From: Candidatus Woesebacteria bacterium
Lineage (GTDB): Bacteria > Patescibacteriota > Microgenomatia > UBA8517
Direction: 5' to 3'
DNA length: 64,000 bases
Assembly (NCBI GenBank): GCA_020061305.1
Contig: JAGUYM010000014.1
Location: 117,920-181,919, forward strand
The notes beneath the pieces are model-generated. The model saw only the letters and a program-made list of their open reading frames with translations, was not told the DNA's origin and did no database searches. Shown here piece by piece: positions 1 through 22,310 of the stretch (position 1 is the first letter of the stretch; each line of letters starts with the position of its first letter). A program made the translations under genes and the position numbers.

Positions 1-158
1 ATAAAATTTGGTCTAAATTTTTGTTGTGGAATTAAATCTTGACCCGTAATTGGTTTTTCTTTGATAAGTATATTTCTTAGGAAAAAACCAGAATAAAATG
101 AGGTTAAAACTACAACTACAACAGATGTAACGATTAGTATATATGTTTTAGTTGACAT
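1..158 (-). CDS. partial ORF (N-terminal ~52 aa, continues past the window start) with a hydrophobic N-terminus; putative membrane protein
   Basis: manual minus-strand translation from ATG at 158-156 gives MSTKTYILIVTSVVVVVLTSFYSGFF...; overlaps the stop of the upstream gene by 11 nt; absent from the ORF track because it is truncated. Confidence 0.25.
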   Translation of the reverse strand, partial: MSTKTYILIVTSVVVVVLTSFYSGFFLRNILIKEKPITGQDLIPQQKFRPNF

Positions 159-1452
159 TAATCTTTTTGAATACAAACAAACTTCCAAATAATACGCTAA
201 TTCCAAACATGAATAAGCCAATGGTTGGTGTCAAGCTACCGGTTTCTGGGGTTGATTTTGGACTAGAGCTGGCTGATTGGGAGGCCACAGGTGTAGTTGA
301 TGCTTTTGTTGTTGCAGGTGGTGAGGCAGAATTTATAGGTGTAGCTGACGGGGTCGACACAAAAGCTGGGCCTTCAGCTGCTTGAACTATAAAACTTCTG
401 GTAATGGTTCTTACAATTCCTGCCGTGTCAGTCCATTTTAAAGTTAATTTATGTTCTCCTGGCTCTAGATTGTTTGGAGGACTCCAGATCCACTTACCTT
501 GAGAATTAGTAGAAACTGTTGCCGACTGCAGTTCTGATTCTATGGTAACTTCCAAATCTAGATTTTTTGGTCCAGTTCCAAAAAATTCCGGATCAGTTGT
601 TGTTATGATTTCGCCATCTTCGATAGATTCCACGGTAACAGTTGTTTCTTGCGTTTGGCTCGGACTTTTGGTTATTTCAAACCTTGATGATTTTTCAATA
701 GCTTCTGGGACAGAAAGGGAACTCTGAGGCAAGTTTTGGTTATCTGTTGTTTCAATGTTTCTAAAATCATAGGTTTTGCCTATTACCATAACAGGAATGG
801 CTTTTAATAACGAAACTTTTGCAACTGCTGAGGTACTATTGTTTAATTCTGAAACCGCATTGATTTCGGCAATTTGAGTCTCTGACACATTTTCTAGATA
901 TTGAGCTAAAGGAATAACAAAATTTCCTTGACTAGAAGTAAGCGATGACACGGTTTTACCATTTATTGTTATATAGACAAGAGCTTTAGCCGGGGTTGAA
1001 TTTGTTTCATTTAAAATTGTGCCTGATGCAACCGGTAGATTTCCGGAAACAATTGGGCTCCCTAATGTATTAAACAACCATGGTGTGCCATTATTATCAA
1101 AATCTTTTCCTCCGGAATTTATTTTAAAAAAAACTTGCTTTCCTGCCTCAATACCTAAAATGTTTATAGAATGAACTAAAGATTTTTCATTTGTCTCATT
1201 TAGGGCAACTTTGGACAAAGAACCTTGTGATGTTCCCCATTTGACAAAACCTGAAGATTCCTTAGCAGTTACCCATGTTATTGTAGCCTGGCTATCGGTA
1301 ATGTTGGTTACTTTTATGTCATTTGGGACAACATCAACATCTGCTCCGATTTTGAAAGTTTGATTTGAGTTAATTAAAAACACACCAGAGACTATTCCTA
1401 GAATCAGTATAAAGATTCCGATGATGGTTGGTAACTTAAGGGTTTTTTTCAT
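148..1452 (-). CDS. cell-surface protein with N-terminal signal/TM, fibronectin-III-like repeats, Ser/Thr/Pro-rich stalk and a C-terminal sortase-type sorting signal (TPETG + hydrophobic helix + KK tail)
   Basis: N-term MKKTLKLPTIIGIFILILGIVSG; motif ATITW...GFVKWGTS; C-term ...SSPKSTPETGSLTPTIGLFMFGISVLFGSLFVFKKINVN. Confidence 0.55.
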   Translation of the reverse strand: MKKTLKLPTIIGIFILILGIVSGVFLINSNQTFKIGADVDVVPNDIKVTNITDSQATITWVTAKESSGFVKWGTSQGSLSKVALNETNEKSLVHSINILGIEAGKQVFFKINSGGKDFDNNGTPWLFNTLGSPIVSGNLPVASGTILNETNSTPAKALVYITINGKTVSSLTSSQGNFVIPLAQYLENVSETQIAEINAVSELNNSTSAVAKVSLLKAIPVMVIGKTYDFRNIETTDNQNLPQSSLSVPEAIEKSSRFEITKSPSQTQETTVTVESIEDGEIITTTDPEFFGTGPKNLDLEVTIESELQSATVSTNSQGKWIWSPPNNLEPGEHKLTLKWTDTAGIVRTITRSFIVQAAEGPAFVSTPSATPINSASPPATTKASTTPVASQSASSSPKSTPETGSLTPTIGLFMFGISVLFGSLFVFKKINVN

Positions 1453-1633
1453 TGATGGTTTTTATGGTTGCTTCATCAAGTCTGGGATTAATTTCCAAAA
1501 GTAATTCTTCGGGTACGGTTTCACTGGGTTTTTCAGAGAAAACCCTATAAACTGAGAATGAAACCCAAAAAACAACCGTGATGGCGGTTAATATTAGAAG
1601 TATAATTATATTTGGTAATTTATTTTTTTTCAT
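1436..1633 (-). CDS. small single-pass membrane protein in the pilN/pilO operon (possible pilus accessory protein)
   Basis: 65 aa with TM helix IIILLILTAITVVFWVSFSV; start overlaps the pilO-like stop and its end overlaps the downstream start (translational coupling). Confidence 0.35.
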   Translation of the reverse strand: MKKNKLPNIIILLILTAITVVFWVSFSVYRVFSEKPSETVPEELLLEINPRLDEATIKTINEKNP

Positions 1634-2295
1634 CAGTTTTTTTCTATTTCCAAAATAAATGGCGCTCTACCATTAATTGTAAGATTAACACTTCTGCCCG
1701 TATCAGATGATGTCGAATTAAGGGTTAGTCCGTCTATTTTTACAGGTCTCCTAAATTTTTCAACATCTTCGATAAATGCAAAAATGCTAGGATAATCACT
1801 GGCTTTTAAAGTGAGGGTAAACTTAAGCTCGTTTGCACTAATTTGGTTACCCACATTTTTCTTTGATTTTATTGTTTCTCCTCCAACAATTTGTGTATCC
1901 GATGTGGAAAAACTGGTTATGGAAACCGAGTTCGATAAGGCAGTATTTTCAATTTGTTTGATGAAAAAATCAGTTTGGGCAGACTTTGGAACGGCCTGAT
2001 TAATAAGTGTCAGACTTGAAACATTATCCTGTAAAACATTGCTTGCAGTTTGCAAATTTCTAATTTTAGTCTGCATTTTAAAAACGGTGTTTTCTTTTGA
2101 TTTTATTTCTTTATTTAATTCAAGAATTGTGATAACTGTTGGCTTTATTGCAAATAGAGAAAATCCAATTATGGTGACAATTGACAATATCAATTCTAAG
2201 TAGGCTCTAACATTTGGTTTTGCATTATATAATGACCAAATGTTAAGGAAAAAACTTTTATATCTGGCATAGTCTTGTTTCCAATTATTTTTCAT
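1633..2295 (-). CDS. pilO: PilO-like type IV pilus inner-membrane assembly protein
   Basis: ~220 aa with a short cytoplasmic N-term, single TM (LELILSIVTIIGFSLFAI), coiled-coil then a beta-rich C-domain; lies 4 nt downstream of the pilN-like gene. Confidence 0.45.
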   Translation of the reverse strand: MKNNWKQDYARYKSFFLNIWSLYNAKPNVRAYLELILSIVTIIGFSLFAIKPTVITILELNKEIKSKENTVFKMQTKIRNLQTASNVLQDNVSSLTLINQAVPKSAQTDFFIKQIENTALSNSVSITSFSTSDTQIVGGETIKSKKNVGNQISANELKFTLTLKASDYPSIFAFIEDVEKFRRPVKIDGLTLNSTSSDTGRSVNLTINGRAPFILEIEKN

Positions 2296-2298
2296 GAT

Positions 2299-2862
2299 TT
2301 ATTTTTTTCTCAAATTTGTAAAATTAGTTTTAGCCGAAATTCCAAAAACAAAAGCCAAACCACCGTCTTGACCAGATGATATCTGGGACAGTGTTACATT
2401 TGTCAGCCAGCCAAGGCTTTCAAGATTTGCGATAAATTGCGCAATTTCAGGCTCGCTTAAAGACGAGGCTTTTATCTGGACACCATCTTCATTAAATGTT
2501 ATTGAATTTAAGACAATGTTTTCAGAAACATTAGAACTAATTGAGGAGATTGCTTTAGAATGGTTTTGATCTAAGTACAAATTTTTAGCGATTTCAAGCT
2601 GTTTTTGTACCAACCTAAAATCAGATTCGACTTTTGAGTATGCTTTAATTTGTGATTTACTTACATTTAAAATTTCATTTAAATCAGAATTTTTGGCATC
2701 AAGCCAAAAACGAGACAAAAAAGCGCCCATTACTATAAGTTCAGTTGCAATAACCATCACTCTAAAGGTCGAAAGTGCCCATTTTAAAATTCTACCAAAG
2801 GTTGAAGATTCAAAATCATCCGAGGGAAGCAGATTGATTATTTTATTCTTGATTTTGGGCAT
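2299..2862 (-). CDS. pilN: PilN-like type IV pilus assembly protein
   Basis: N-terminal INLLP motif (MPKIKNKIINLLP), the conserved PilM-binding peptide of PilN, followed by one TM helix and a periplasmic coiled-coil domain; 187 aa. Confidence 0.6.
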   Translation of the reverse strand: MPKIKNKIINLLPSDDFESSTFGRILKWALSTFRVMVIATELIVMGAFLSRFWLDAKNSDLNEILNVSKSQIKAYSKVESDFRLVQKQLEIAKNLYLDQNHSKAISSISSNVSENIVLNSITFNEDGVQIKASSLSEPEIAQFIANLESLGWLTNVTLSQISSGQDGGLAFVFGISAKTNFTNLRKK

Positions 2863-2924
2863 ATTTCCAATATATCATATAAGCAAAGCTTGGCCAACCA
2901 TCAAGTTAGCGAAAAACAAAGTTA

Positions 2925-3158
2925 TCACTCAGCTATTTTTGAGAGTCTGGATTTTATTCTTGAAGCTTTGTTTTTGTGAATAACATTTCTTTTTGCTGCC
3001 TTGTCCGCTAAAGATGTCGCACTTAAGATGTCCTTATTTAATTTAGACTTTTTAGCATTTTTTAATGCGGAATCAAGCAAAGCTAAAACCCTTTTATTGA
3101 TTGATTCTTTTCTTTTTGATGACCTCAGTGCTCTTTTGGCTGTTTTAGTAACCGGCAT
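2925..3158 (-). CDS. rpsT: 30S ribosomal protein S20
   Basis: MPVTKTAKRALRSSKRKESINKRVL...VIHKNKASRIKSRLSKIAE matches S20; the start is trimmed to the internal ATG at 3158, whereas the ORF-track start 3257 is an upstream in-frame extension. Confidence 0.85.
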   Translation of the reverse strand: MPVTKTAKRALRSSKRKESINKRVLALLDSALKNAKKSKLNKDILSATSLADKAAKRNVIHKNKASRIKSRLSKIAE

Positions 3159-3180
3159 GAGGGTAGTATAATCAAAAAAA

Positions 3181-4875
3181 ATGAGATTGGCAATTGATAA
3201 ATTTAAAATACTTTTTTTTAAACAACAGCACTCTATTTTGTCTGCAGCAACCCTCATAATGGGGATGATCGTTTTTTCAAGGTTGTTGGGTCTTGTTCGC
3301 CAAAGAGTATTGGCACATTATTTTAATGCCTCAGAACTTTCTTTGTTTTTTGCTGCCTTTAGATTACCTGATACACTTTTTGAAGTATTAGTTTTTGGAA
3401 CATTTGCCTCTGCTTTCATTCCTGTCTTTACAAAGCTTTTAAAAAAAGAGAAAGAAGATGATCATGGAGAGGCATGGAAACTTGCAGGAGTAATTACCAA
3501 CTGGGGGGGGTTGCTTTTTATAATTTTGGCTGTACTTTTTATAGCATTAGCTCATCCAATTTACAAATTGATAACCCCGGGTTTTGGGTCTATTGAGCAG
3601 GAAAAAATTGTGGAAATAGCAAGAATTCTTTTTGCCGCTCAAGGATTTTTTGTGGTTTCATATGTACTAACTGCAGTTTTAGAATCATCTAAAAGATTTT
3701 TGATTCCTGCACTTGCCCCGCTTTTTTATAACTTGGGAATTATCGTTACTACAATTTTGTTCGCCCAAGATCTACATTTGATGGCTCCAACGATAGGGGT
3801 TGTAATTGGTGCACTGTCTCATTTTTTAGTACAAATGCCCTTTGCCTATAAATTAGGGTTTAGATTTACAAAAAGTTTGGAAATAACTACAGATGTCAAA
3901 AAAATTGTAAAACTTGCAATACCCAGAATTCTCGAAGTATCATTTTTACAGGTATCTAAATTTGTGGAGTTGACTTTGGCCACTTTAATTTCAGTCCCTG
4001 CATACACATATTATATGTTTGGGAACACGATTCAACTTTTGCCAGTTGGTTTGTTTGGAACTGCAATAGCCAAGGCCGCACTCCCTACACTGGTTAGAAA
4101 ATCTGACGATTTGGATGAGTTTAAAAAAGTCTTGTATCAGACATTAAACCAGATAATGTTTTTAATGACTCCAGTAGTTGCTTTTTTGATGGTCGCTCGT
4201 GTTCCTGTGGTTAGGCTTATTTTTGGTACTGATATATTCACATGGGACGCAACCGTTCAAACATCATTAGTTGTTTCTGCCTTCGCCTTTGGAATATTTG
4301 CCCAAAGTATAAATGCCATTTTGGCCAGAAGTTTTTACGCTCTAACAGATACCAAAACCCCAGTTATTGTGTCATCAGCAACCCTTTTAGTAAATATAGT
4401 TATAGATTATTTGTTAGTCGTAGTTTATAAACTTCCTGTTTGGAGTTTGGCAGCAGCTTTTTCTTTTTCATCAATTATCCAGTCATTCGCCTTATATATT
4501 TTAATGTCTAAAAGGGTTCACAATGGAGCGAGGTCTGCACTTTATTTGCCTGTTCTTAAATGCCTTGTTGCAGGTTTAACTTCTGGTATTACCATGTTTT
4601 TTATCTTAAAATTTTTTGATAAATCTGTCTGGATTAAAAAAGTTTCGTTTATATCAAATCTGAATCTACCATTTGAGAACTTTGTTTTGGATACAAGATA
4701 TGCCGGAAATTTATTAATACTTACCGTTTTTGTCGGAATTACGGGTTTGGTAATTTATATTTTGATTTTAAAATTACTGAAATCAAAGGAATTAGATGTT
4801 TTTTGGAGGTTAATAAATAGAATGTTTACAGGAAAAACCATGCCCGATCCCCAAACTGAAAACCCAACGGTATAA
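3181..4875 (+). CDS. murJ: lipid II flippase MurJ (MviN family)
   Basis: N-terminal MurJ signature ...FSRLLGLVRQRVLAHYFNASELSLFFAAFRLPDTLFEVLVFGTFASAFIPVF, 14 predicted TM segments; TATAAT at 3167-3172 suggests a very short leader; an alternative start at the internal Met (MGMIVFSR) is possible. Confidence 0.8.
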   Translation: MRLAIDKFKILFFKQQHSILSAATLIMGMIVFSRLLGLVRQRVLAHYFNASELSLFFAAFRLPDTLFEVLVFGTFASAFIPVFTKLLKKEKEDDHGEAWKLAGVITNWGGLLFIILAVLFIALAHPIYKLITPGFGSIEQEKIVEIARILFAAQGFFVVSYVLTAVLESSKRFLIPALAPLFYNLGIIVTTILFAQDLHLMAPTIGVVIGALSHFLVQMPFAYKLGFRFTKSLEITTDVKKIVKLAIPRILEVSFLQVSKFVELTLATLISVPAYTYYMFGNTIQLLPVGLFGTAIAKAALPTLVRKSDDLDEFKKVLYQTLNQIMFLMTPVVAFLMVARVPVVRLIFGTDIFTWDATVQTSLVVSAFAFGIFAQSINAILARSFYALTDTKTPVIVSSATLLVNIVIDYLLVVVYKLPVWSLAAAFSFSSIIQSFALYILMSKRVHNGARSALYLPVLKCLVAGLTSGITMFFILKFFDKSVWIKKVSFISNLNLPFENFVLDTRYAGNLLILTVFVGITGLVIYILILKLLKSKELDVFWRLINRMFTGKTMPDPQTENPTV

Positions 4876-4881
4876 AACCCC

Positions 4882-4919
4882 TTGACAAAGGGTTAGCACT
4901 CGTGGTATAAAACTGCTAA
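4882..4919 (+). promoter_or_regulatory. sigma70-like promoter (TTGACA 4882-4887, 18-bp spacer, TATAAA 4906-4911) overlapped by a CIRCE inverted repeat (TTAGCACTC-N9-AACTGCTAA, 4893-4919), the HrcA operator
   Basis: left arm is a perfect CIRCE half-site; right arm matches 7/9; it sits directly upstream of hrcA-grpE-dnaK-dnaJ. Confidence 0.7.
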
Positions 4920-4925
4920 TAGACT

Positions 4926-5651
4926 ATGAATGCACTATCTTCAAGGCAAACACAAATTTTAAAGGCATTAATTGATGAATATATTGAAACCGCGCTTCCC
5001 GTTGGAAGTGAAGCAATGGATAAAAAATATAACCTTGGTGTTTCACCTGCAACAATTAGAAACGAAATGGCTTATCTGACAAAATCGGGTTATTTAAAAC
5101 AACCCCACACTTCTGCAGGTAGAGTTCCTACTCCCACTGCAATGAAATTCTATGTTGATCAATTGATGGAGGAAAAATCATTAAGTCTCGCAGATGAAGT
5201 AAAAGCAAAAGAGGAAATTTGGGATGTTAAAGACAATTTGGATAAATTAATGGACGAAATGACCCATTCATTGGCTCATAGGACAGGAGGAATTGCTGTT
5301 GCTGCTACGGATGATGGCGATTTTTGGCAGGCTGGTTATGCCAATGTTTTTTCTCACCCTGAATTTTCGGACATTCACACTTGTTCTTCAATCTTTGAGT
5401 TTATAGACAATGATGAGGATATGCTTGATCTATTTTTCAATAGATTTCCAATAGAATCACCTTTTGAGGTTTTGTTTGCTGAAGAAATGGGTATTAAAAA
5501 TTTTCCTGTTGGGATTGTTGCTGCCCATTTTAAGGCTAAAGATAAAAATGGAGCTTTGGGTGTAATTGGGCCGGTTAGACAGTCATACCAAAGAGTGGTG
5601 CCAACAATTAGATATTACAGGGACATGCTGGAGGAACTGATGAGGCTATGA
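4926..5651 (+). CDS. hrcA: heat-inducible transcription repressor HrcA (compact form, 241 aa)
   Basis: N-terminal winged-helix LSSRQTQILKALIDEYIETALPVGSEAMDKKYNLGVSPATIRNEMAYLTKSGYLKQPHTSAGRVPT; position upstream of grpE-dnaK-dnaJ; CIRCE in its own promoter. Confidence 0.8.
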   Translation: MNALSSRQTQILKALIDEYIETALPVGSEAMDKKYNLGVSPATIRNEMAYLTKSGYLKQPHTSAGRVPTPTAMKFYVDQLMEEKSLSLADEVKAKEEIWDVKDNLDKLMDEMTHSLAHRTGGIAVAATDDGDFWQAGYANVFSHPEFSDIHTCSSIFEFIDNDEDMLDLFFNRFPIESPFEVLFAEEMGIKNFPVGIVAAHFKAKDKNGALGVIGPVRQSYQRVVPTIRYYRDMLEELMRL

Positions 5652-6178
5652 CAAAAAATCAAAAAACTAAAAAATTAAAAACCCAAGTTGAAAACGCGGA
5701 GCAGAATGATTTGAAGAATCAGTTGGTAAGGGTAATGGCAGATTATGATAACCTTAAAAAAAGAAGCGAAGATGAACGAAATCAAATGTATAAATTGGCA
5801 AGTATCTCTTTTTTTGGCAAGTTATTACCCATAATCGATAATTTAAAATCGGCGCAAAATCATATAAAAGATAGTGGAATCGCAATTATTATAGGTCAGC
5901 TTGAAACGCTCGCTCGTGAAGAAGGGTTTGAAGAAATAAAAATAGATGTTGGTGATGACTTTAATCATGAGACAATGGAAGTTATTGAGACTATTGAAAC
6001 TAAAGAAGAAAAAGATAATAATAACAATACCAACATGGATGGCAAGGTCGCAGAGGTGGTACAGAGTGGATGGAGACATGCTGGTTCACCAGGACTTGGT
6101 GAGGATGGTGCAACAATAGTCCGTCATGCAAGAGTCAAGGTTTACAAATATAAAAAGGAGGAAAAAATAAATGAGTAA
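5648..6178 (+). CDS. grpE: nucleotide exchange factor GrpE
   Basis: coiled-coil N-term + GrpE core ([24 protein letters not shown]...IIDNLKSA...); ATGA overlap with hrcA. Confidence 0.85.
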
Positions 6179-8069
6179 AATAATTGGAATTGATTTAGGA
6201 ACAACTAATTCGTGTGTTGCTGTAATGGAAGGTGGACAACCTAAAGTTATCCCCGCTTCCGATACTGGCAAAAACACCACCCCCTCTGTTGTTGAAGTTG
6301 TTAAGAATCTCGTTGGCGATGTTGCTAAAAGACAAATGATTTTAAATCCTTCAAATACAATTGCTTCTGTTAAAAGATTGATGGGTAGACGAGAAGATGA
6401 CAAGGAAGTAACAAGAACCAAAAAGATGGTTTCATATAAAATTGTTGCTGGTAAAAATGGAATGGCCGAGGTTGAGATTGATGGTAAAGCATATACTCCA
6501 CAGGAAATATCGGCTCGTGTTTTAATGAAACTTAAAAAAGATGCTGAAAAGTATCTAGGAGAGGAAGTAACTTCAGCAGTTATTACGGTTCCTGCATATT
6601 TTGATGACTCACAAAGGCAAGCAACAAAACAAGCAGGTGAAATCGCGGGGCTTAAAGTTGAAAGAATTATTAATGAGCCTACAGCTGCAGCCCTTGCTTA
6701 TGGTTTAGACAAGAAAAATGCACATAAAATTGCAGTTTATGATTTGGGTGGTGGAACATTTGATATTTCAATTTTAGAGCTTGGTGACGGTATCTTTGAA
6801 GTCAAGTCAACCAATGGAGATACTCATCTAGGGGGAGATGATTTTGACGAAAAGTTAGTTGATTATATTGCTGAAGAATTTAAGAAAGATAATGCAGTTG
6901 ATTTAAGGTTGGATAAACAAGCTCTTCAAAGAATAAGAGATGCCGCGGAAAAAGCAAAAATAGAACTAACCGCTTCTGAAGAAGTTGAAATAAATCAACC
7001 CTATATTACTCAAAAGGATGGTCAACCACTTCATTTAACAATGAAGCTCACAAGAGCCAAATTTGAAAGTCTAGTTGATGGTTTGGTTCAAAAAACTATA
7101 AAACCGGTTGAAGATGCGTTAAAAGATGCAAAACTTAAAGCATCCGACATTGATGAGATTGTTTTGGTCGGAGGTATGACTAGAATGCCAAAAGTTATTG
7201 AAACAGTTAAAAACTTCTTTGGTAAAGAGCCTAATAAATCAGTAAATCCAGATGAGGTTGTTGCGGTCGGAGCGGCAATTCAAGCAGGAGTACTAGCAGG
7301 AGATGTCAAAGATATACTTCTTTTAGATGTTACTCCTCTAACTTTAGCTATTGAAACAATGGGAGGAGTTGCAACCCCAATGATTCCAAGGAATACAACT
7401 GTTCCAACTTCTAAAACTGAAGTTTTTTCAACTGCTGCAGATAACCAAACACAAGTAGAGATAAATATTACTCAAGGTGAACGACCATTGTCTGCGGACA
7501 ACAAGTCTTTAGGTAGATTTATTCTTGATGGTATTCCACCAGCTCCAAGGGGTATACCACAGGTTGAAGTTACATTTGATTTGGATGCGAATGGAATTTT
7601 GACGGTTACAGCAAAAGATAAAGCTACCGGTAAATCTCAAAATATTAAGATTACAGGTTCTGTTGGTCTTTCGGAGGATGAAGTCAAGAAAGCTCAGGAA
7701 GAAGCAGAAAGACACAAAGCGGAAGATGAAAAGAAAGCAGAGATTATCAAAGCGAAAAACAATGCGGATGCTATGGTAACGACTGCCGAAAAGGCACTGA
7801 AGGATGTTGGAGATAAAACACCAGCGGATGTTAAAACAAAAGTAGAAGACAAAATAAAGGCAGTTAAAGAGACTCTTTCAAAAGATTCTACAAAGGAAGA
7901 ATTAGAAAAAGTTACGAAAGAATTATCAGACACCCTTTCTGAAGTGGGCCAACAGATGTATTCCGCACAAGGCGGACAAGAACAAGAAAATAATGAAAAT
8001 GGTGGTGAGCCTAAAACTGAAGATAAGAAAAAAGACGAGCAGGTGGAAGAAGGACAGGTTGTAGAATAA
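6171..8069 (+). CDS. dnaK: molecular chaperone DnaK (Hsp70)
   Basis: [33 protein letters not shown] motifs; GGAGG Shine-Dalgarno upstream. Confidence 0.95.
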
Positions 8070-8075
8070 CTCCAA

Positions 8076-8948
8076 ATGTCTATTAAAAATGATTACTATG
8101 ATATTCTGGGGGTAAATAAATCTGCTAACGCCCAGGAGATTAAAGCTGCATATAGAAAAAAAGCCCTAGAGTGGCATCCTGACAGACACCAAGGAAGTGA
8201 TAAAGAAGAAGCTGAAAAAAAATTTAAAGAAATAAACGAGGCTTACCAAATACTTTCCGATACTTCAAAAAGACAAGCATATGATCAATTTGGACATGAT
8301 GCTTTTGCACCTGGGGGTGGAGGCAATCCATTTGCAGGAGGAGGTTTTGGTGGGCGAACCGGACCATTTACATATACTTGGTCATCTAGTGGTGGACAAA
8401 ATCCCTTTGGGAATATGGATTTTGGGGACCCGTTTGACATCTTTGAAAGTTTTTTTGGTGGAGGTTCTCCATTTAGACAACAAAGACAAGTTCCAAGATA
8501 TTCTGTGAAGCTTAGCTTCATGGAAGCCGTTAATGGTGTTACTAAAGAATTTGAAATTGAAGATAAAAAAAGAAAAATAAAAATCCCTGCGGGGGTTGAT
8601 GAAGGGACAAGAATTAATTTTGGTGATTTTATGCTTTCAATAAATGTGGCTCCCCATGAATTTTTTGAAAGAGATGGCCAGGATATTTATGTTAATGTGA
8701 CAGTCCCCTACTCAATGGCAGTATTAGGTGGAACTATAAAAGTTCCGACCATAGATGGTGAAATTAAAATAAAAGTTCGGGCGGGAACAAAATCGGGGAC
8801 AATGATAAGGTTAAAAGGACAAGGAGTAGTTTCAACCCACAGTAGATCACGAGGTGACCAATATGTGAAATTAAACATATCGATTCCTGTGAAACTTACA
8901 CGGACACAAAAAAGAATAATTGATGATTTGAAGGAAGAAGGTTTGTGA
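8076..8948 (+). CDS. dnaJ: DnaJ-family co-chaperone, type II (J domain + G/F region + C-terminal domains, no Cys-rich zinc-finger domain)
   Basis: DYYDILGV...HPDR J domain with HPD; Gly/Phe-rich linker; no CxxCxGxG repeats. Confidence 0.8.
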   Translation: MSIKNDYYDILGVNKSANAQEIKAAYRKKALEWHPDRHQGSDKEEAEKKFKEINEAYQILSDTSKRQAYDQFGHDAFAPGGGGNPFAGGGFGGRTGPFTYTWSSSGGQNPFGNMDFGDPFDIFESFFGGGSPFRQQRQVPRYSVKLSFMEAVNGVTKEFEIEDKKRKIKIPAGVDEGTRINFGDFMLSINVAPHEFFERDGQDIYVNVTVPYSMAVLGGTIKVPTIDGEIKIKVRAGTKSGTMIRLKGQGVVSTHSRSRGDQYVKLNISIPVKLTRTQKRIIDDLKEEGL

Positions 8949-9085
8949 TAATATGATTATGTTATAAATTATGTCAAGTGAACTCAATAAAACCTTAAAA
9001 CCTAAAGCCAAAGTTTAAACTGACATCAATACTTCCGCATCCAAAAAATAGTGAAAAGTCAAATTTAATATAGTTTTCATTCTCA

Positions 9086-9114
9086 TTGACCGCAAGCCTC
9101 CTTTACTGTAGAAT
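9086..9114 (+). promoter_or_regulatory. sigma70-like promoter for nusA (TTGACC-17-TAGAAT); predicted transcription start is 1-2 nt before the ATG (leaderless)
   Basis: hexamers at 9086-9091 and 9109-9114; ATG at 9123. Confidence 0.5.
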
Positions 9115-9122
9115 TCAGTACT

Positions 9123-10160
9123 ATGGCAAGTAATAACCAACCAAGAACAGAATTTAATCAGGCATTAAAGGCCATTGCTATGGAGAGAGGTCTTGATCCT
9201 AATGTCATATTGGAGGCAATTGAACAGGCAATTATTGCCGCCTTTAGAAGAGATGCTAAAGAGGCAGGAACCGAATATCCTGAAGAAACTGTAATTACGG
9301 CCCAAATTGATTCACTTGATGGCGGAGCCAAAGTTTTTATTGATGGTAAAGATGTTACTCCACCTGGATTTGGACGAATTGCAGCTCAAACTGCAAAACA
9401 AGTAATTCATCAAAAAATAAGAGAGGCTGAAAGAGGATCTGTGATGGAAGAATATATGGGTAAAGTTGGAAGCTTAGTTTCAGGAATTGTTCTTCGATTT
9501 GATGGATCAAATGTAAAAGTTGACCTTGGAAGAACAGAAGGCATAATGCCTGCTGAGGAAAGAATACCACAAGAAAGACTTACTCAAGGTCAGAGACTCA
9601 CATTTTTACTTAAAGACATTAAAGAAACAATAAAAGGTAAAGAAATAATTTTATCTCGTGCCGATCCTCAGTTTGTAGTTAAGCTTTTTGCTCGAGAAGT
9701 CCCTGAAATAAATTCAGGTTCAGTTGAAATAAAACTTATATCAAGAGAAGCGGGAGTTAGGACAAAGATTGCGGTGTTTTCTTCTCAATCTGGCGTTGAT
9801 CCGGTAGGAAGCTGTGTTGGCCAAAAAGGTGTTAGAGTTCAGGCCGTTACAAATGAGTTGGGTGGAGAGAGAGTAGATGTCATTCCTTACACAGAGGATG
9901 TTGCTGAACTTGTTAAATTGGCTTTGGGTCCCGCTGAAAATTTGGAAGTTAAAGTTGTCAAAAAGGACAAAACAGCATCCGTAAAAGCTCCGGAAGACCA
10001 ACTATCTTTGGCAATTGGGAAAGACGGCCAAAATGTTCGCTTGGCAAGTAAGCTTGTCGGTTATAAAATTGAAATAGTCGGTGATGGGTCAATAATTGAA
10101 GATAAAACAATTGAAGAAAAAACAGGAGTAGAAGAAGTAGTTGTCGAAGACACAAAATGA
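9123..10160 (+). CDS. nusA: transcription termination/antitermination factor NusA
   Basis: N-terminal NusA domain, S1 and two KH domains (GSCVGQKGVRVQAV, AIGKDGQNVRLAS). Confidence 0.9.
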   Translation: MASNNQPRTEFNQALKAIAMERGLDPNVILEAIEQAIIAAFRRDAKEAGTEYPEETVITAQIDSLDGGAKVFIDGKDVTPPGFGRIAAQTAKQVIHQKIREAERGSVMEEYMGKVGSLVSGIVLRFDGSNVKVDLGRTEGIMPAEERIPQERLTQGQRLTFLLKDIKETIKGKEIILSRADPQFVVKLFAREVPEINSGSVEIKLISREAGVRTKIAVFSSQSGVDPVGSCVGQKGVRVQAVTNELGGERVDVIPYTEDVAELVKLALGPAENLEVKVVKKDKTASVKAPEDQLSLAIGKDGQNVRLASKLVGYKIEIVGDGSIIEDKTIEEKTGVEEVVVEDTK

Positions 10161-10224
10161 AAATTTTATACATAAATTTTAAAATCTTCGCTTTCTAATT
10201 CCTGATTTCTAATTGCTAATTATT

Positions 10225-11598
10225 ATGTTAAAAAATCGTCAACCGATTGTCACAGTTTTGGGCCATGTGGATCATGGAAAAACATCACTTTTGGATGCCA
10301 TTAGACAAACCACGATTGTTTCAAAAGAAGCCGGGGGGATAACTCAGTCAATTGGCGCATCAGTTGTTTCGGGTATTACCTTTATTGATACACCTGGCCA
10401 CGCACTTTTTTCAAGCATGAGGGAAAGGGGTGCTGATATTGCAGACATTGCACTTTTAATAATTGATGGCTCAAGTGGTATCAAGCCCCAAACTTTAGAA
10501 GCTTTAGAACTAATACAAAAAAATGAAGTTCCGTTTATTGTGGTTATTACCAAAAGTGATTTACCTTCAAGTACTATTGAAAATGTGCTCCCGCCTTTAG
10601 AGGAAAAGGGAATTTATTTCGAAGGCAGAGGTGGTCAAACTCCATTTATTGAGGTTTCGGCCAAAAATAAAATTAATCTTGATAAACTTATTGATTTAAT
10701 ACTTTTATTTGCCGAGGTCAATGAAATTAAGGGAGACGAAGATTTACCGTTGGAAGCCTATGTTATTGAAACTACAAAGGAAAAAGGTGGAATTTATACA
10801 TCTTTAGTTGTTAAAAATGGAAAACTTAAAATTGGAGACGATTTGTATACCAAAAATACAAAAGGCAGAGTGAGAGGTCTTTTTGATTTTCAAAATAAGC
10901 CAGTCAAAGAGGTGTCGCCGGGTTTTCCAGCAAGAGTTTTGGGTTTTGATGAAACGCCTTTGGTTGGATGCGTGGTTTCTGATAAACCATGTGATATAGA
11001 AAAACCTGTAAATAAAAAAACATTTATAAGGCATGATAAAACTAAAATCCCTCTTCTGATAAAAGCCAATAATCAAGGAGCCTTGGATGTTTTAAAAGCA
11101 TCAATTCCTAATGGGTTTATTGTCGTTGATTCTGGAATTGGTGAAGTTGTGGAATCAGATGTTTTAAATGCAAAAGCAAATGAGGCATATCTTTTTGTTT
11201 TTGAAAGCAAGATTTCTTCAAACATAAAAAAATTAGCAGATAGCGAAGGAGTTCATGTCGAAAAATTTGATGTTATTTACGAACTTTTAGAGAAGCTTGA
11301 AAAAATATTAAAAGATGATGTTTTTGAAATAAAAGGAAAGGCTCAAATATTAGCAGAATTTCCATTTGATGGCAAAAAGATTGCGGGTGTTAGAGTGACA
11401 ATGGGAAGAATTGAAAAAACATTAAATTTGAAGATATTAAGAGGGGAAAATGAAATAGGTCAAGCCAAGGCGGTTTCAATTAAAAAACAAAAACAAGAAG
11501 TTCAAGGGGTTTCGCAAGGTGAAGAATGTGGAATACTTTTAAATAAAGAGCTTGATTTTAAAATTGGAGATGTTATTATAGCCGTAAATGAAAAATAG
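10225..11598 (+). CDS. infB: translation initiation factor IF-2, short form lacking the N-terminal domains
   Basis: G domain [30 protein letters not shown]; the ATG at 10225 is preferred over the TTG at 10213 used by the ORF track. Confidence 0.9.
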   Translation: MLKNRQPIVTVLGHVDHGKTSLLDAIRQTTIVSKEAGGITQSIGASVVSGITFIDTPGHALFSSMRERGADIADIALLIIDGSSGIKPQTLEALELIQKNEVPFIVVITKSDLPSSTIENVLPPLEEKGIYFEGRGGQTPFIEVSAKNKINLDKLIDLILLFAEVNEIKGDEDLPLEAYVIETTKEKGGIYTSLVVKNGKLKIGDDLYTKNTKGRVRGLFDFQNKPVKEVSPGFPARVLGFDETPLVGCVVSDKPCDIEKPVNKKTFIRHDKTKIPLLIKANNQGALDVLKASIPNGFIVVDSGIGEVVESDVLNAKANEAYLFVFESKISSNIKKLADSEGVHVEKFDVIYELLEKLEKILKDDVFEIKGKAQILAEFPFDGKKIAGVRVTMGRIEKTLNLKILRGENEIGQAKAVSIKKQKQEVQGVSQGEECGILLNKELDFKIGDVIIAVNEK

Positions 11599-12484
11599 CT
11601 TTGCGCAATTATTATCCCCCGCCAAAGATATCTTGGTTTTACTTCCCAATAGACCCCATTTGGATCAGGTGGCTTCAGGTCTTTCCTTGTTTTTGTCTTT
11701 AAAACAAACAAAAAATGTGACAATTGCTTCTAGTAACCCCATGACTGTTGAGTTTTCAAGACTTGTGGGAGTAGACAATATCACAAAAGAACTTGGAAAT
11801 AAGAATTTAATAATTGAGTTTCCTGGGTATAATCCTGAACATGTAGAAAAAGTTTCTGCAGATATTGATAATAATCAATTTAAATTAACATTTTTACCTA
11901 AAGCAGGATTTAAACCGCCAGAAAAATCACAAGTAGTTTTAAACTATGCAGGTATTTCGGCCGATTTAGTTATTTTAATAGGTGGAGGCGATGAAACACA
12001 TTTTGAGATGCTTAAAAATCCTGAACTTGTCAATTTAAACCTGGTTCATGTTGGGACAAGGCTTTTAGAAATTTCAACAGATCTTAAAGTTTTATCTTTT
12101 GCAAGACAAGCATCATCAACGTCAGAAATTGTATATAGTTTAATTAAAGAAAGTGGACTTCCTGTTGATTCTGACATTGCAACAAATCTTTTGGCGGGAA
12201 TTGAAGATGGAAGTAGAAGTTTTCAAGATGATGGAGTGAGCGCAGATACATTTGCCTATTTTGCAGAACTTTTGAAAGTGGGTGGAAAAAGACTACCTAA
12301 ATTGATGCCTCAAAAATTTCCTGTTGGGTCAATTCCAAATAAACCGTATAACACAAATCTAGGACAGGTGGGGCAAGTAGAACAGGTAGTTGAAGAAGAT
12401 ATTCCAATGCCTGAGGTTGAACCAAAAGACATTCCCAGCTCATGGAGCGAACCAAAAATCTTCACAGGAACAAGCGTGAGTTAA
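11588..12484 (+). CDS. DHH/DHHA1-family (NrnA-like) protein with a degenerate catalytic motif
   Basis: LLPNRPHLDQVASGLSLFLSL aligns with DHH motif I (hhxxHxxPDGDAxGSxLAL) but lacks the Asp pair; IGGGDETH in place of motif III; position between infB and rpsO matches the nrnA locus in other bacteria. Confidence 0.4.
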   Translation: MKNSFAQLLSPAKDILVLLPNRPHLDQVASGLSLFLSLKQTKNVTIASSNPMTVEFSRLVGVDNITKELGNKNLIIEFPGYNPEHVEKVSADIDNNQFKLTFLPKAGFKPPEKSQVVLNYAGISADLVILIGGGDETHFEMLKNPELVNLNLVHVGTRLLEISTDLKVLSFARQASSTSEIVYSLIKESGLPVDSDIATNLLAGIEDGSRSFQDDGVSADTFAYFAELLKVGGKRLPKLMPQKFPVGSIPNKPYNTNLGQVGQVEQVVEEDIPMPEVEPKDIPSSWSEPKIFTGTSVS

Positions 12485-12595
12485 CACAAATTTTTTTGCA
12501 GGTTGCATTTTTCAGTGAGAGATGGTGCTACAAAAGTAGAAAAACCTAAAAAGACTAAGAAGCCAGTTACCAAAAAAGGTAAATAATTTTCCTCT

Positions 12596-12624
12596 TTGTA
12601 AATTTTGAACTTGCCTGATATAAT
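12596..12624 (+). promoter_or_regulatory. sigma70-like promoter for rpsO (TTGTAA-17-TATAAT)
   Basis: hexamers at 12596-12601 and 12619-12624. Confidence 0.45.
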
Positions 12625-12680
12625 ACAACAGCTGGATGATAGCGAGGAGTAAAATCTTTGGCTACACATGACTAATCAAT

Positions 12681-12950
12681 ATGGCATTAAAGATAGACGA
12701 GAAAAAACAAGTAATTACAAAGTTTGCAAGGGAAAAAGGTGATACTGGTTCTCCAGAAGTACAAATTGCACTTCTAAGTACAAAAATTGCAAAACTTGCA
12801 GAGCATTTGAAGGAACACAAAAAAGATGTTCACTCAAGAAGGGGGCTTTTGGCAATGGTTGCAAAAAGAAGAAGACTACTTTCCTACTTGCAAAAGAAGG
12901 ATGAAAAGAGGTATAAAGATCTGATTAAAGAATTAGGACTAAATAAATAA
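12681..12950 (+). CDS. rpsO: 30S ribosomal protein S15
   Basis: [51 protein letters not shown]. Confidence 0.9.
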
Positions 12951-13027
12951 AAAATTAACCTAATTATTCTAATTAACCTAATTGACCAAATAAGCTTCAA
13001 ATAGGACAGAATAATTAAATATACAAA

Positions 13028-15319: not shown

Positions 15320-15471
15320 CATTTAGTTTTTAGTAAAAAGTTATATAATAACCCATATTATGGTTGAAGGCGAATGTAGGTTAACGGATGATTGTATCTC
15401 AATTTTTAGCTGATCGTTGTAGTCTCTTATAATATTTTTAAATTTCAACAATTCAATGCTACAATTAAATT

Positions 15472-16521: not shown

Positions 16522-16535
16522 TATAAAATTATTTC

Positions 16536-16994
16536 ATGAAGATAGTTGTTATTGGCGATACACATGATAATATCCAAAACATTAGACATGTGATGGGGTT
16601 TTCAGAAAAAATTAAGGCAGAGGCGGTAATTCATACTGGAGATTGGAGTAATTTAAAAACATACAAAGAAATTAAAAGTTACAAAATTAAAACATATGGA
16701 GTGTTAGGTAATGCAGACATTTCGTCTGAGATAAAAAGTAAACTCGATGAGTTTTTGGAACTAGAAATAGATAATTTAAAAATTGGCCTGATTCATAATA
16801 TTAAAAAATTAAAATTGATTGAAAATTGGAAATTTAAAATTGAAAATTTGGACATAGTTTTTTGCGGCCATGAGCACAAACAATACCAAAAAAATAAATT
16901 TATTAATCCAGGAAGCCTCGAGAATGATATTAATTTTGCAATTTTCGATACAAAAACAAAAAGAGTAGAATTCATCAACAATGACAAAATTTGA
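16536..16994 (+). CDS. small calcineurin-like metallophosphoesterase (YfcE/MJ0936 family)
   Basis: IGDTHDN, GDW, GNAD, GHEH metal-binding motifs in a 152-aa protein. Confidence 0.7.
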   Translation: MKIVVIGDTHDNIQNIRHVMGFSEKIKAEAVIHTGDWSNLKTYKEIKSYKIKTYGVLGNADISSEIKSKLDEFLELEIDNLKIGLIHNIKKLKLIENWKFKIENLDIVFCGHEHKQYQKNKFINPGSLENDINFAIFDTKTKRVEFINNDKI

Positions 16995-17541: not shown

Positions 17542-17643
17542 TCATTTCATGTTAAAATTAACTTAATTATTCTAATCAAGTTAATTGTTCTAAATTAGAC
17601 ATTAAGAATTAGAGCTTGGTTGGAAATTAGAAATTAGAAATTT

Positions 17644-19290: not shown

Positions 19291-19311
19291 CTTCCTCACC
19301 CCAAGTTTGGT

Positions 19312-21426: not shown

Positions 21427-21443
21427 CATTAAAACAAAATTAT

Positions 21444-22070: not shown

Positions 22071-22073
22071 TTT

Positions 22074-22310
22074 ATGGATTCAGTACAAAGATTATTAATT
22101 ATCGTTGTTATTAGTTTAACTGTTCTTCTTGTGATAGTTGGAATTCAGGTGGTTTTTATAATTTTAGACCTTAGAAAAGCCATTAAAAGGCTGAACTCAA
22201 TTTTAGAAGATGCAATTTTGGGAGGTGGGTTAATTAGACCTGAGAAATTAACGGGTATTATGGAACTTTTCAAAAAAAACAAAATCACCACAACCCACGG
22301 GCAGGAATAG
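22074..22310 (+). CDS. small hypothetical membrane protein
   Basis: 78 aa with an N-terminal TM helix; 3 nt downstream of the RodZ-like gene. Confidence 0.3.
   Translation: MDSVQRLLIIVVISLTVLLVIVGIQVVFIILDLRKAIKRLNSILEDAILGGGLIRPEKLTGIMELFKKNKITTTHGQE

What the first reader, a model, noticed from the sequence alone, without database searches (positions are those of the whole stretch)
148..1452. Surface protein with a TPETG-type C-terminal sorting signal encoded downstream of pilN/pilO-like genes
The 434-aa protein has a signal/anchor sequence, fibronectin-III-like motifs, an STP-rich stalk and ends with ...STPETG + hydrophobic helix + KK tail. That is the architecture of sortase substrates, but with TPETG rather than LPXTG. 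A sortase gene is present in the window (26022-26663). The gene is the last in a minus-strand operon that begins with a PilN homologue carrying the diagnostic INLLP peptide. In Gram-positives, type IV pilus assembly components and sortase-anchored proteins are normally unrelated systems. Their co-operonic arrangement in a CPR-like organism may indicate a surface appendage or adhesin used for host or episymbiont attachment.
Basis: partly seen in the sequence, partly recalled or inferred. Interest (0 to 1): 0.5.

Follow-up and report, generated by a model that had tools for sequence, protein, structure and literature searches.

The report
Wall-anchored stalk protein in pilN/pilO operon
A small uncultured bacterium (Microgenomates group) encodes a three-domain surface protein with a variant cell-wall sorting signal (TPETG), always directly after two type IV pilus platform genes, so it may be a wall-attached part of the pilus machine rather than a free-standing adhesin.

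Summary
ORF 148..1452(-) encodes a 434-aa protein with an N-terminal hydrophobic helix, three beta-sandwich domains and an S/T/P-rich linker. It ends in TPETG, a hydrophobic helix and KK.

In 118 full-length homologues the pentapeptide is [T/V/L]-P-[E/D/x]-[T/S]-G. P is kept in 117/118 and G in 118/118, and some members carry canonical LPETG or LPDTG. It scores just below the LPXTG_anchor cut-off (14.4-15.2 vs 15.9 bits).

The cassette S20-pilN-pilO-65aa-this gene, divergent from murJ, is present in every related locus examined, down to 25% identity (Woesebacteria to Gottesmanbacteria), with overlapping or near-abutting reading frames.

The gene is not the last in the operon; the window start hides further genes. 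The sortase (26022..26663) is a conserved housekeeping gene that fits no established class. In 76 of 77 loci it directly follows a protein with an FtsA/PilM-like cytoplasmic domain, a membrane helix and a baseplate-J-like ectodomain.

Best reading: a sortase-anchored, probably glycosylated wall protein that works with the PilN/PilO platform. Cleavage by sortase, the pilus role and the adhesin idea are untested. No other protein with this exact tail was found. Two neighbouring families carry looser PxxG+helix tails.

This is a new variant of a known kind, of moderate interest.

The parts
148..1452 (-). X434: 434-aa surface protein (the finding)
   Evidence: ORF. 306 homologues, all about 420-460 aa, from Microgenomates/Woesebacteria. 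Big_13 Pfam hit.
1369..1434 (-). N-terminal hydrophobic helix (residues 7-28), preceded by a conserved K-[L/I]-P-T and followed by an invariant A37 (FKLGA; possible signal-peptidase site)
   Evidence: AF2 helix 7-28. K6, P8, T9, L16, G23 and A37 are invariant or nearly so in 40 sequences. [KR]-[IL]-P-T is kept in most Gottesmanbacteria orthologues. Cleavage not tested.
1069..1323 (-). beta-sandwich domain 1 (residues 44-128), FN3-like
   Evidence: AF2 pLDDT about 90. PF16656/PF00041 precomputed in homologues. Foldseek matches to FN3 arrays.
766..1032 (-). beta-sandwich domain 2 (residues 141-229), CarboxypepD_reg-like
   Evidence: Weak PF13620 hit at 143-182. AF2 strands.
646..741 (-). conserved but predicted-disordered segment (residues 238-269), LPESxLxxPESxExSSRFE; candidate partner-binding peptide
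   Evidence: pLDDT below 50, yet P242, P249, S256, R257, F258 and E259 are invariant and S255 nearly so.
385..612 (-). beta-sandwich domain 3 (residues 281-356), Big_13 Ig-like
   Evidence: PF19077 at 3e-09, above cut-off. AF2.
259..375 (-). S/T/P-rich linker (residues 360-398), variable in length and sequence after a conserved AEGPAFxSTPSAT start
   Evidence: Alignment. pLDDT below 50.
238..252 (-). TPETG pentapeptide (residues 401-405), LPXTG-like sorting motif
   Evidence: Motif counts in 118 homologues. TIGR01167 scores 11.3 bits on the full length and 14.4 bits on the tail alone, against a cut-off of 15.9.
163..237 (-). C-terminal hydrophobic helix (residues 407-428) plus K429 K430
   Evidence: AF2 helix 408-430. 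116/118 homologues have 1-3 K/R in the last 12 residues.
1436..1633 (-). s65: 65-aa single-helix membrane protein; overlaps the X434 start by 17 nt
   Evidence: ORF. An orthologue sits between pilO and X434 in 29 related loci; no hit passed the threshold in the rest.
1633..2295 (-). PilO homologue
   Evidence: PF04350, 28.1 bits against a cut-off of 22. Conserved synteny.
2299..2862 (-). PilN homologue; INLLP (residues 9-13) at nt 2824..2838
   Evidence: PF05137 at 1e-11. The only PDB sequence hit is M. xanthus PilN 3jc8. INLL is kept in nearly all of the 37 orthologues (IDLL in two).
2925..3158 (-). ribosomal protein S20 gene, first gene of the conserved array
   Evidence: PF01649 in the syntenic loci. 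phmmer matches in 35 loci.
3181..4875 (+). MurJ (lipid II flippase), divergent neighbour in all loci
   Evidence: PF03023 in the syntenic loci. Synteny.
24010..26025 (+). P671: FtsA/PilM-like cytoplasmic domain (14-252), membrane helix (312-332) and baseplate-J-like ectodomain (336-669); its stop overlaps the sortase start
26022..26663 (+). sortase (N-terminal membrane anchor; FGHS His, TLVTC Cys and a downstream Arg read directly from the sequence)
   Evidence: PF04203 at 4.5e-22. TIGR01076 scores 56.2 against a cut-off of 39.35. No class model passes. It follows P671 in 76/77 loci.

Best explanation
X434 is exported by Sec. Its C-terminal [T/V/L]PE[T/S]G + helix + KK signal is most likely recognised by the genome's single conserved housekeeping sortase. 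The sortase would cut after Thr404 and join the protein to the peptidoglycan precursor. That would leave a stalk of three beta-sandwich domains held in or on the wall by an S/T/P-rich, probably O-glycosylated, linker.

The gene is translationally coupled to pilN, pilO and a 65-aa membrane protein in every relative examined. The product therefore most likely acts with the PilN/PilO inner-membrane platform of the type IV pilus machine. It could be a wall-fixed accessory that ties or guides the machine through the wall of a cell without an outer membrane. In operon order it occupies the position that PilP/PilQ hold in diderms.

Shown here: the architecture, the motif conservation, the conserved cassette, the presence and conservation of the sortase, and the sortase's coupling to an FtsA/PilM-like membrane protein.

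Inferred: cleavage by sortase, attachment to the wall, glycosylation, physical contact with PilN/PilO, and any role in the pilus.
For: Motif:
- P is kept in 117/118 and G in 118/118 homologues. Position 4 is T108/S9/A1 and position 1 is T/V/L.
- Canonical LPETG/LPDTG occurs in some members.
- Most of the linker before the motif varies in length and sequence.
- Isolated tails score 14.4-15.2 bits against TIGR01167 and hit a sortase-dependent family, EF0750_LPXTG. No exosortase-type CTERM model hits.

Specificity: the tail pattern gives 0 hits in 1821 control ORFs.

Sortase:
- It is intact and 70-76% identical among relatives in which X434 is only 50-56% identical.
- It lies on the same chromosome about 27 kb away in CP011214.1 (L012, L039).
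- The sortase family is reported as near-ubiquitous in Microgenomates (PMC6744442).

Cassette:
- murJ<-|S20-pilN-pilO-s65-X434 is present in all related loci with enough sequence, down to 25% identity.
- Median gaps are 1, -1 and -4 nt.
- PilN keeps the PilM-binding INLL motif in nearly all orthologues.

Envelope context: PMT-family glycosyltransferase, LytR-CpsA-Psr and FemAB genes lie within 10 kb in the three relatives whose gene calls were read.

The sortase follows a protein with an FtsA/PilM-fold cytoplasmic domain in 76/77 loci. The pilN operon has no pilM of its own.
Against: - The tail is below the curated TIGR01167 cut-off.
- Distant orthologues have IPESG, APDAG, TPVAG, VPSPG, VYDSG, VPTSG and one IPTTA, and often lack a basic tail. 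Position 4 and the charge rule of classical sortase signals are therefore relaxed.
- Both hydrophobic ends are unusually well conserved (mean column identity 0.73-0.74). This would also fit helices that are kept and functional.
- No other protein with this exact tail was found.
- The sortase is not next to its presumed substrate.
- No pilM, pilB, pilC, pilT or pilin was seen among the roughly 35 window ORFs scanned, so the pilus assignment of this PilN/PilO pair rests on homology alone.
- The PilM-likeness of P671 is at fold level only. FtsA scores equally or better, and a sequence profile finds no PilM.
Confidence: 0.45

Rival explanations
1. The C-terminal segment is simply a membrane anchor that is never cut. 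X434 then stays in the cytoplasmic membrane, by its C-terminal helix or by both ends, as an extracytoplasmic partner of PilN/PilO. The conserved PxxG would be a hinge before the helix.
For: - The C-terminal helix and the N-terminal helix are among the best conserved parts of the protein.
- Position 4 and the basic tail degrade in distant orthologues.
- Two neighbouring families carry LP[x][V/A]G or VPVAG + helix tails that end without any basic residue. These are poor sortase signals.
- The tail scores below the TIGR01167 cut-off.
- In the CPR Pam pilus system, FN3/Ig proteins with a C-terminal helix are interpreted as membrane-anchored (10.64898/2026.03.03.709456).
Against: - A hinge would not need near-invariant P and G at fixed spacing with T/S between them, nor drift to canonical LPETG/LPDTG.
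- The S/T/P-rich linker directly before the motif is the classical wall-spanning arrangement.
- A highly conserved sortase needs a conserved substrate, and this is the only candidate seen.
Confidence: 0.25
2. The tail is a sorting signal for a different processing enzyme, such as an exosortase, archaeosortase or rhombosortase-like enzyme or an unknown one, as with PEP-CTERM or VPDSG-CTERM signals.
For: - LPESG, LPDSG, IPESG and VPETG resemble the VPDSG-CTERM variant of exosortase signals (resemblance from my own knowledge of TIGR03778, not a test).
- Related PxxG+helix tails with V/A at position 4 and no basic tail lie in the same locus.
Against: - No PEP-CTERM, VPDSG-CTERM, PGF-CTERM or other CTERM model hits the tails even at E<=10. 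LPXTG_anchor and an LPXTG family do hit.
- No exosortase-like gene appears among the called genes of the syntenic loci.
- Sortase is present and conserved.
Confidence: 0.08
3. X434 is a subunit of a sortase-polymerised (Gram-positive type) pilus or fibre.
For: - The best class-level sortase model is class C (64.7 bits). The second-best PDB sequence hit is a class C pilus sortase (24rr; the top hit, 4d70, is deposited only as 'sortase family protein').
- First-position variants (V/I/T-P-x-T-G) recall pilin signals such as IPQTG/VPDTG (own knowledge).
- The protein has Ig-like domains.
- 'IYPK' is present in 14 of 40 aligned members.
Against: - The Lys of 'YPK' is not conserved (K/Q/R/T/S/...). 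The window protein has no YPK at all.
- The sortase scores far below the class C cut-off of 160 bits and has no C-terminal helix.
- No cluster of tip, shaft and base pilins with a dedicated sortase is present.
- The sortase sits in a housekeeping context.
Confidence: 0.05
4. X434 is an ordinary adhesin for host or particle attachment that merely shares a transcript with pilN/pilO.
For: - Tandem FN3/Ig arrays are typical of adhesins. Foldseek hits include SiiE and the ice-binding adhesin.
- CPR bacteria depend on contact with hosts (PMC6744442).
Against: - Adhesins are usually variable, lineage-specific and mobile in position. This protein is single-copy and of fixed length (about 420-460 aa), and it holds a fixed position from Woesebacteria to Gottesmanbacteria.
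- No recognisable binding domain was found.
- A conserved disordered peptide suggests a constant protein partner.
Confidence: 0.12

Closest known systems
LPXTG cell-wall sorting signal / housekeeping sortase pathway of Gram-positive bacteria (S. aureus SrtA; A. oris SrtA with its glycosylated substrate GspA and an LCP enzyme)
   Same: Hydrophobic N-terminus, beta-sandwich domains, S/T/P-rich linker, xPxTG, hydrophobic helix and basic tail. One conserved membrane-anchored sortase with His/Cys/Arg. LCP and FemAB genes lie in the neighbourhood in relatives.
   Different: The first motif residue is T or V rather than L. S/A appear at position 4 in relatives. The tail is below the TIGR01167 cut-off. 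The sortase belongs to no defined class and is fused in an operon to an FtsA/PilM-like membrane protein. The substrate gene sits inside a pilN-pilO operon.
PilMNOPQ alignment subcomplex of type IVa pili (P. aeruginosa, M. xanthus)
   Same: pilN (with INLLP) and pilO are followed by two further envelope genes in the operon positions of pilP and pilQ. X434 has beta-sandwich domains and a long flexible region, as PilP does.
   Different: There is no sequence relationship to PilP or PilQ (no Pfam hit). There is no outer membrane and no secretin. No pilM is adjacent. The anchor would be a covalent link to the wall, not a lipid or a secretin.
Pam pilus system of CPR bacteria (PamR/PamC/PamD; bioRxiv 10.64898/2026.03.03.709456)
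   Same: A CPR-specific (Saccharimonadia/Microgenomatia) set of exported FN3/Ig-fold proteins with a C-terminal helix, proposed to hold a surface filament to the cell.
   Different: The pam operon lies next to ATP-synthase genes and contains chaperone-like proteins and donor-strand pilins. It contains no pilN/pilO. Homology to X434 was not tested. No sortase motif is reported there.
VPDSG-CTERM / PEP-CTERM exosortase signals
   Same: A short acidic P-containing motif (VPDSG against LPDSG/IPESG/VPETG), then a helix, at the extreme C-terminus.
   Different: No HMM match. No exosortase was seen. The organism is a monoderm with a sortase.

Membership tests
Sortase substrate (LPXTG-type cell wall sorting signal) | Pentapeptide LPXTG or an accepted variant, 30-40 residues from the C-terminus | tested here: inconclusive
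   TPETG at residues 401-405. Across 118 homologues the family pattern is [T/V/L]P[E/D/x][T/S]G, with some canonical LPETG/LPDTG. T at position 1 is not an established variant.
Sortase substrate (LPXTG-type cell wall sorting signal) | Hydrophobic segment followed by a positively charged tail | tested here: met
   Residues 407-428 are hydrophobic, followed by K429 K430. 116/118 homologues have 1-3 K/R in the last 12 residues. The feature is weaker or absent in Gottesmanbacteria orthologues.
Sortase substrate (LPXTG-type cell wall sorting signal) | Score above the curated cut-off of TIGR01167 LPXTG_anchor (15.9 bits) | tested here: not met
   11.3 bits on the full length and 14.4 on the tail alone. 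An LPDTG relative scores 15.2. 12/40 members hit at E<=1.
Sortase substrate (LPXTG-type cell wall sorting signal) | N-terminal signal peptide | tested here: inconclusive
   A charged n-region, a 21-residue hydrophobic helix and an invariant A37 in FKLGA. No signal-peptide predictor was available, so it could be an uncleaved anchor.
Sortase substrate (LPXTG-type cell wall sorting signal) | A sortase encoded in the same genome | tested here: met
   Window 26022..26663. Both genes lie on CP011214.1 (L012, L039).
Sortase substrate (LPXTG-type cell wall sorting signal) | Cleavage between T and G and amide linkage to peptidoglycan | not testable with these tools
   Needs biochemistry or mass spectrometry.
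Type IV pilus alignment subcomplex (PilM/N/O/P) | PilN and PilO homologues with the PilM-binding N-terminal INLLP on PilN | tested here: met
   PF05137 scores 45.1 bits and PF04350 28.1 bits, both above cut-off. INLL is conserved in nearly all of the 37 orthologues.
Type IV pilus alignment subcomplex (PilM/N/O/P) | Adjacent pilM and co-localised pilB/pilC/pilins | tested here: not met
   None appear among the called genes within +/-10 kb in L002-L004 or among the roughly 35 window ORFs scanned. A Microgenomates genome is reported to have pilM in a separate pilus locus without pilN/O listed (PMC7143001).
Type IV pilus alignment subcomplex (PilM/N/O/P) | X434 or s65 homologous to PilP | tested here: not met
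   No PilP Pfam or NCBIfam hit at E<=1.
Exosortase/archaeosortase C-terminal signals (PEP-CTERM, VPDSG-CTERM, PGF-CTERM) | Match to a CTERM sorting-domain model and presence of the cognate enzyme | tested here: not met
   No CTERM model hits seven tails at E<=10. No such enzyme appears among the called genes of the loci. Whole genomes were not scanned.
Sortase-assembled pilin (class C sortase system) | Conserved pilin-motif lysine (YPK) and a class C sortase | tested here: not met
   The K after YP is present in 14/40 members and absent from the window protein. The class C model scores 64.7 bits against a cut-off of 160.
Sortase classes A-F | Score above a class-specific NCBIfam cut-off | tested here: not met
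   Class C 64.7/160, SrtD 45/140, E 43.5/160, D 39.5/165, F 26.4/166. Only the general TIGR01076 model passes.

The most novel reading that the evidence does not exclude
Microgenomates may build a wall-fixed part of the type IV pilus basal body with a dedicated sortase module. In this reading, X434 is covalently attached to peptidoglycan at the machine and stands in for the PilP/PilQ/secretin-anchoring layer of diderms. The sortase is brought to the site because its operon partner P671 docks by its FtsA/PilM-fold cytoplasmic domain on the INLLP peptide of the PilM-less PilN encoded with X434. This would be the first covalently wall-anchored component of a type IV pilus machine, and the first sortase with a built-in targeting partner.
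Probability: 0.2. Interest if true: 0.75.

Novelty: new variant of a known kind. Interest (0 to 1): 0.5.

Why it matters
How type IV pili cross and are held in the wall of cells without an outer membrane is unresolved. CPR bacteria rely on these pili for contact with hosts and for DNA uptake. A conserved wall-anchored protein encoded with PilN/PilO gives a concrete candidate to test.

The finding also points to the likely main substrate of the sortase that is nearly universal in Microgenomates, whose substrates have not been described in the literature searched. It also widens the range of sortase-type motifs (T/V at position 1, S at position 4).

Tried and rejected
1. Looking for other proteins with the same tail:
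- Regex scans of the window, of 38 pilNO loci and of 1.2 Mb of sortase loci found no other PETG-tailed protein.
- A tail-only phmmer search against 1.84 billion representatives returned only three hits, all the same family. A 36-residue query has little power there, so this is weak negative evidence.

2. Structure search of X434 against the PDB gave only generic FN3/Ig tandem arrays (TM about 0.17). No functional lead came from it.

3. The promoter/terminator scan of 1..3400 gave counts close to the shuffled expectation (promoters within one sd, terminators about 1.5 sd above) and is uninformative.

4. The pilin-motif idea (IYPK) was rejected because the Lys is not conserved.

5. Sequence-level tests of P671 against PilM (Pfam at E<=1, phmmer, and a profile against PDB sequences) found nothing. 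Only fold comparison links it to FtsA/PilM.

6. The C. perfringens type IV pilus/sortase paper (PMC11580942) describes an unrelated arrangement.

7. The Pam pilus preprint describes a different operon.
Full report
**What is at the coordinates**

ORF 148..1452 on the minus strand encodes 434 residues and ends ...KSTPETG-SLTPTIGLFMFGISVLFGSLFVF-KK-INVN. It overlaps by 17 nt the end of a 65-aa single-helix protein gene (s65, 1436..1633). That gene abuts pilO (1633..2295) and pilN (2299..2862).

Both pilus genes pass Pfam's cut-offs: PF04350 at 28.1 bits against 22, and PF05137 at 45.1 bits against 22.8. PilN starts MPKIKNKIINLLP. Ribosomal protein S20 (2925..3158) lies upstream, and murJ (3181..4875) is divergent.

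A 213-aa sortase is at 26022..26663. It matches PF04203 at 4.5e-22 and TIGR01076 at 56.2 bits against a cut-off of 39.35. Its FGHS histidine, TLVTC cysteine and downstream arginine can be read directly from the sequence.

One point is wrong: the gene is not the last in the operon. On a contig that extends past the window start, a 327-aa membrane-protein gene overlaps its stop codon.

**Is the tail more than chance?**

In the window only this real ORF has xPxTG + helix + basic tail. A broader pattern (P-x-x-G, then at least 15 uncharged and mostly hydrophobic residues, close to the C-terminus) hits 0 of 1821 ORFs (>=80 aa) in 1.2 Mb of other loci from the same lineage.

The protein has 306 detectable homologues. 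All are about 420-460 aa and come from Microgenomates, Woesebacteria or the 'Patescibacteria group'. In the 118 full-length sequences among the best 120, the pentapeptide composition is as follows:

| Position | Residues (count) |
|---|---|
| 1 | T83, V20, L13, I1, S1 |
| 2 | P117, M1 |
| 3 | E100, V7, D6, others |
| 4 | T108, S9, A1 |
| 5 | G118 |

- After a conserved start, the S/T/P-rich linker before the motif varies in length and sequence.
- Some members have canonical LPETG or LPDTG.
- Isolated tails score 14.4-15.2 bits against TIGR01167 LPXTG_anchor (cut-off 15.9). They also hit a sortase-dependent protein family. No exosortase-type CTERM model hits, even at E<=10.
- More distant orthologues (25-42% identity) carry IPESG, APDAG, TPVAG, VPSPG, VYDSG, VPTSG, VPVSG, IPETG and one IPTTA, and often lack basic residues.

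The signal is thus LPXTG-like and strongly constrained in the Woesebacteria-level clade. It becomes looser further out, and it narrowly fails the curated model.

**Anatomy**

An AlphaFold model built with 40 homologues (mean pLDDT 77) shows these parts:

| Residues | Feature |
|---|---|
| 7-28 | hydrophobic helix |
| 44-128 | FN3-like beta-sandwich |
| 141-229 | beta-sandwich |
| 238-269 | disordered segment |
| 281-356 | Big_13 Ig-like beta-sandwich |
| 360-398 | disordered S/T/P-rich linker |
| 408-430 | helix |

- Foldseek against the PDB returns only generic FN3/Ig arrays (contactins, SiiE, the ice adhesin) with low TM-scores.
- The disordered segment 238-269 is conserved: LPESxLxxPESxExSSRFE, with P242, P249, S256, R257, F258 and E259 invariant and S255 nearly so. 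This is typical of a peptide that binds a constant partner.
- The N-terminal region is also conserved. K-[L/I]-P-T precedes the helix in most orthologues, including Gottesmanbacteria, and A37 in FKLGA is invariant. It may be a signal peptide with a conserved cleavage site, or a retained anchor. I could not decide between these.

**Context in relatives**

A scan of species-representative genomes gave 34 loci from Woesebacteria, Microgenomates and Gottesmanbacteria, at 55% down to 25% identity. Together with four loci fetched by exact protein look-up, every locus with enough sequence shows the same order: murJ<-|S20-pilN-pilO-(s65)-X434.

- The median gap is 1 nt for pilN>pilO, -1 nt for pilO>s65 and -4 nt for s65>X434.
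- PilN keeps INLL in nearly all of the 37 orthologues; two have IDLL.
- Within 10 kb in three relatives lie a PMT-family glycosyltransferase, two further putative glycosyltransferases, a LytR-CpsA-Psr gene and femAB. No pilM, pilB, pilC, pilT or pilin is called there.
- None of these pilus genes appears among the roughly 35 window ORFs scanned either.
- A published complete Microgenomates genome lists a single pilus locus with PilA, minor pilins and PilD/B/T/C/M, without PilN/O, plus one sortase (PMC7143001). This fits the PilN/PilO pair here being the machine's pair, encoded apart from the rest. I could not verify that in this genome.

**The sortase**

It fits no class. The class C model scores 64.7 bits against a cut-off of 160, and the others score lower. 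Among PDB sequence hits, one chain is named as a class C pilus sortase and the others carry generic sortase names, with E-values of about 1e-9 to 1e-7.

- It is more conserved than its presumed substrate: 70-76% identity against 50-56%.
- It lies in a fixed housekeeping array: alaS-P671-sortase-ruvX-65aa-yceG-rpoB-rpoC.
- In CP011214.1 the sortase and X434 are about 27 kb apart, as in the window (L012, L039).
- Its upstream partner P671 (24010..26025) overlaps its start. In a metagenome scan the sortase directly follows P671 in 76 of 77 loci with room, most often with a 4-nt overlap.

The P671 model (pLDDT 83) has an actin-like cytoplasmic domain (14-252), a membrane helix (312-332) and an ectodomain.

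- The top six Foldseek hits are P. aeruginosa PilM, including the PilM:PilN(1-12) complex.
- The ectodomain resembles phage baseplate wedge proteins.
- There is no sequence-level match to PilM.

The sortase is therefore tied to an FtsA/PilM-fold membrane protein, while the pilN operon that carries the candidate substrate has no pilM. That is suggestive but not demonstrated. An FtsA-like, division-site role is equally compatible.

**Other tails**

The exact tail was not found in any other family. Two further families in the same locus carry related signals.

- A Cys-rich protein of 145-435 aa lies one to three genes downstream. It ends LP[E/D/S/V/T][V/A]G-TSWPTILG...LLLAL, or VPVAG/IPVSG in Gottesmanbacteria, with no basic tail.
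- A shorter X434 paralogue lies beyond murJ in Gottesmanbacteria and ends IPVSG/IPVTG + helix.

V or A at position 4 is not what known sortases cut. Either this sortase has a relaxed P-x-x-G specificity, or these tails are plain anchors, or another enzyme is involved.

**Explanation**

The best-supported reading is a sortase-anchored, probably glycosylated wall protein that acts together with the PilN/PilO platform. I give about 0.6 to sortase processing, about 0.8 to a functional link with PilN/PilO, and about 0.4 to a structural role in the pilus machine rather than adhesion. That is about 0.45 for the combined statement.

The rivals are an uncleaved membrane anchor (0.25), an ordinary adhesin (0.12), a non-sortase sorting system (0.08) and a sortase-polymerised pilin (0.05).

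**Comparison with what is known and novelty**

Sortase and type IV pilus genes are both known to be enriched in CPR, and the sortase family is nearly universal in Microgenomates (PMC6744442). In the literature searched, I found no description of sortase substrates in CPR, or of a sorting-signal protein inside a pilN-pilO operon.

The recently described Pam pili of CPR use Ig-fold proteins with C-terminal helices, but in a different operon.

I class this as a new variant of a known kind: an LPXTG-type signal with unusual residues, in an unusual and deeply conserved genetic partnership. Interest is moderate (0.5). It would be higher if the wall-anchored pilus-machine model holds.

Noticed in passing
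window 24010..26025 (+), with 26022..26663: A 671-aa protein is translationally coupled to the sortase: adjacent in 76/77 related loci, most often with a 4-nt overlap. Its parts are an FtsA/PilM-fold cytoplasmic domain, a disordered stretch, a membrane helix and a phage baseplate-J/gp47-like ectodomain. It is annotated only as 'baseplate J/gp47 family' or hypothetical. A sortase with a fixed actin-fold membrane partner appears undescribed.
   Followed up: partly
L002:12511-13101, L001:5594-5935 (partial) and equivalents in most pilNO loci: A second conserved family lies one to three genes downstream of X434. It has an N-terminal helix (MKNKFTxIGIIL...), a Cys-rich ectodomain and the tail LP[E/D/S/V/T][V/A]G-TSWPTILG...LLLAL, which ends at the helix with no basic residues. 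Gottesmanbacteria versions end VPVAG/IPVSG. No NCBIfam model matches the tail.
   Followed up: partly
L023:4028-5065, L024:3976-5004, L025:3669-4775, L028:2434-3552 and others: In Gottesmanbacteria-like loci a shorter paralogue of X434 (about 345-372 aa) lies beyond murJ. It has its own IPVSG/IPVTG + helix tail.
   Followed up: no
L002:13149-21329, and the same region in L003 and L004: A cell-envelope island lies next to the cassette in relatives: a PMT-family protein O-mannosyltransferase-like gene (about 800 aa), two putative glycosyltransferases (weak LA_3751/3752 family hits), LytR-CpsA-Psr and FemAB. This suggests the S/T/P linker of X434 is glycosylated and that a cross-bridge nucleophile for sortase is made nearby. 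The window does not cover this side.
   Followed up: no
window 1436..1633 (-): The 65-aa protein is a conserved member of the cassette. It has one helix and a conserved C-terminal L-x-P-x-L-D motif. In the Woesebacteria clade it shares a K-L-P-[S/N] start with X434. No family match.
   Followed up: partly
window 1..64000, switch near 3160-3180: Almost all genes from 3.2 kb to 64 kb are on the + strand, with positive GC and AT skew throughout. The S20-pilN operon to the left is on the - strand, and AT skew is negative there (-0.10). The divergent S20|murJ point may lie near a replication origin. A strong strand disparity has been reported for a Microgenomates genome (PMC7143001).
   Followed up: no
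L001:2506-3489: In this organism the gene directly after X434 encodes a 327-aa single-helix protein with no family match. In relatives the gene at this position (for example the roughly 390-aa Pro-rich + helix + Cys-rich protein of L002 and L003) corresponds to a gene found about 2 kb further on in this organism (L001:4512-5582). The downstream end of the operon is therefore variable.
   Followed up: no
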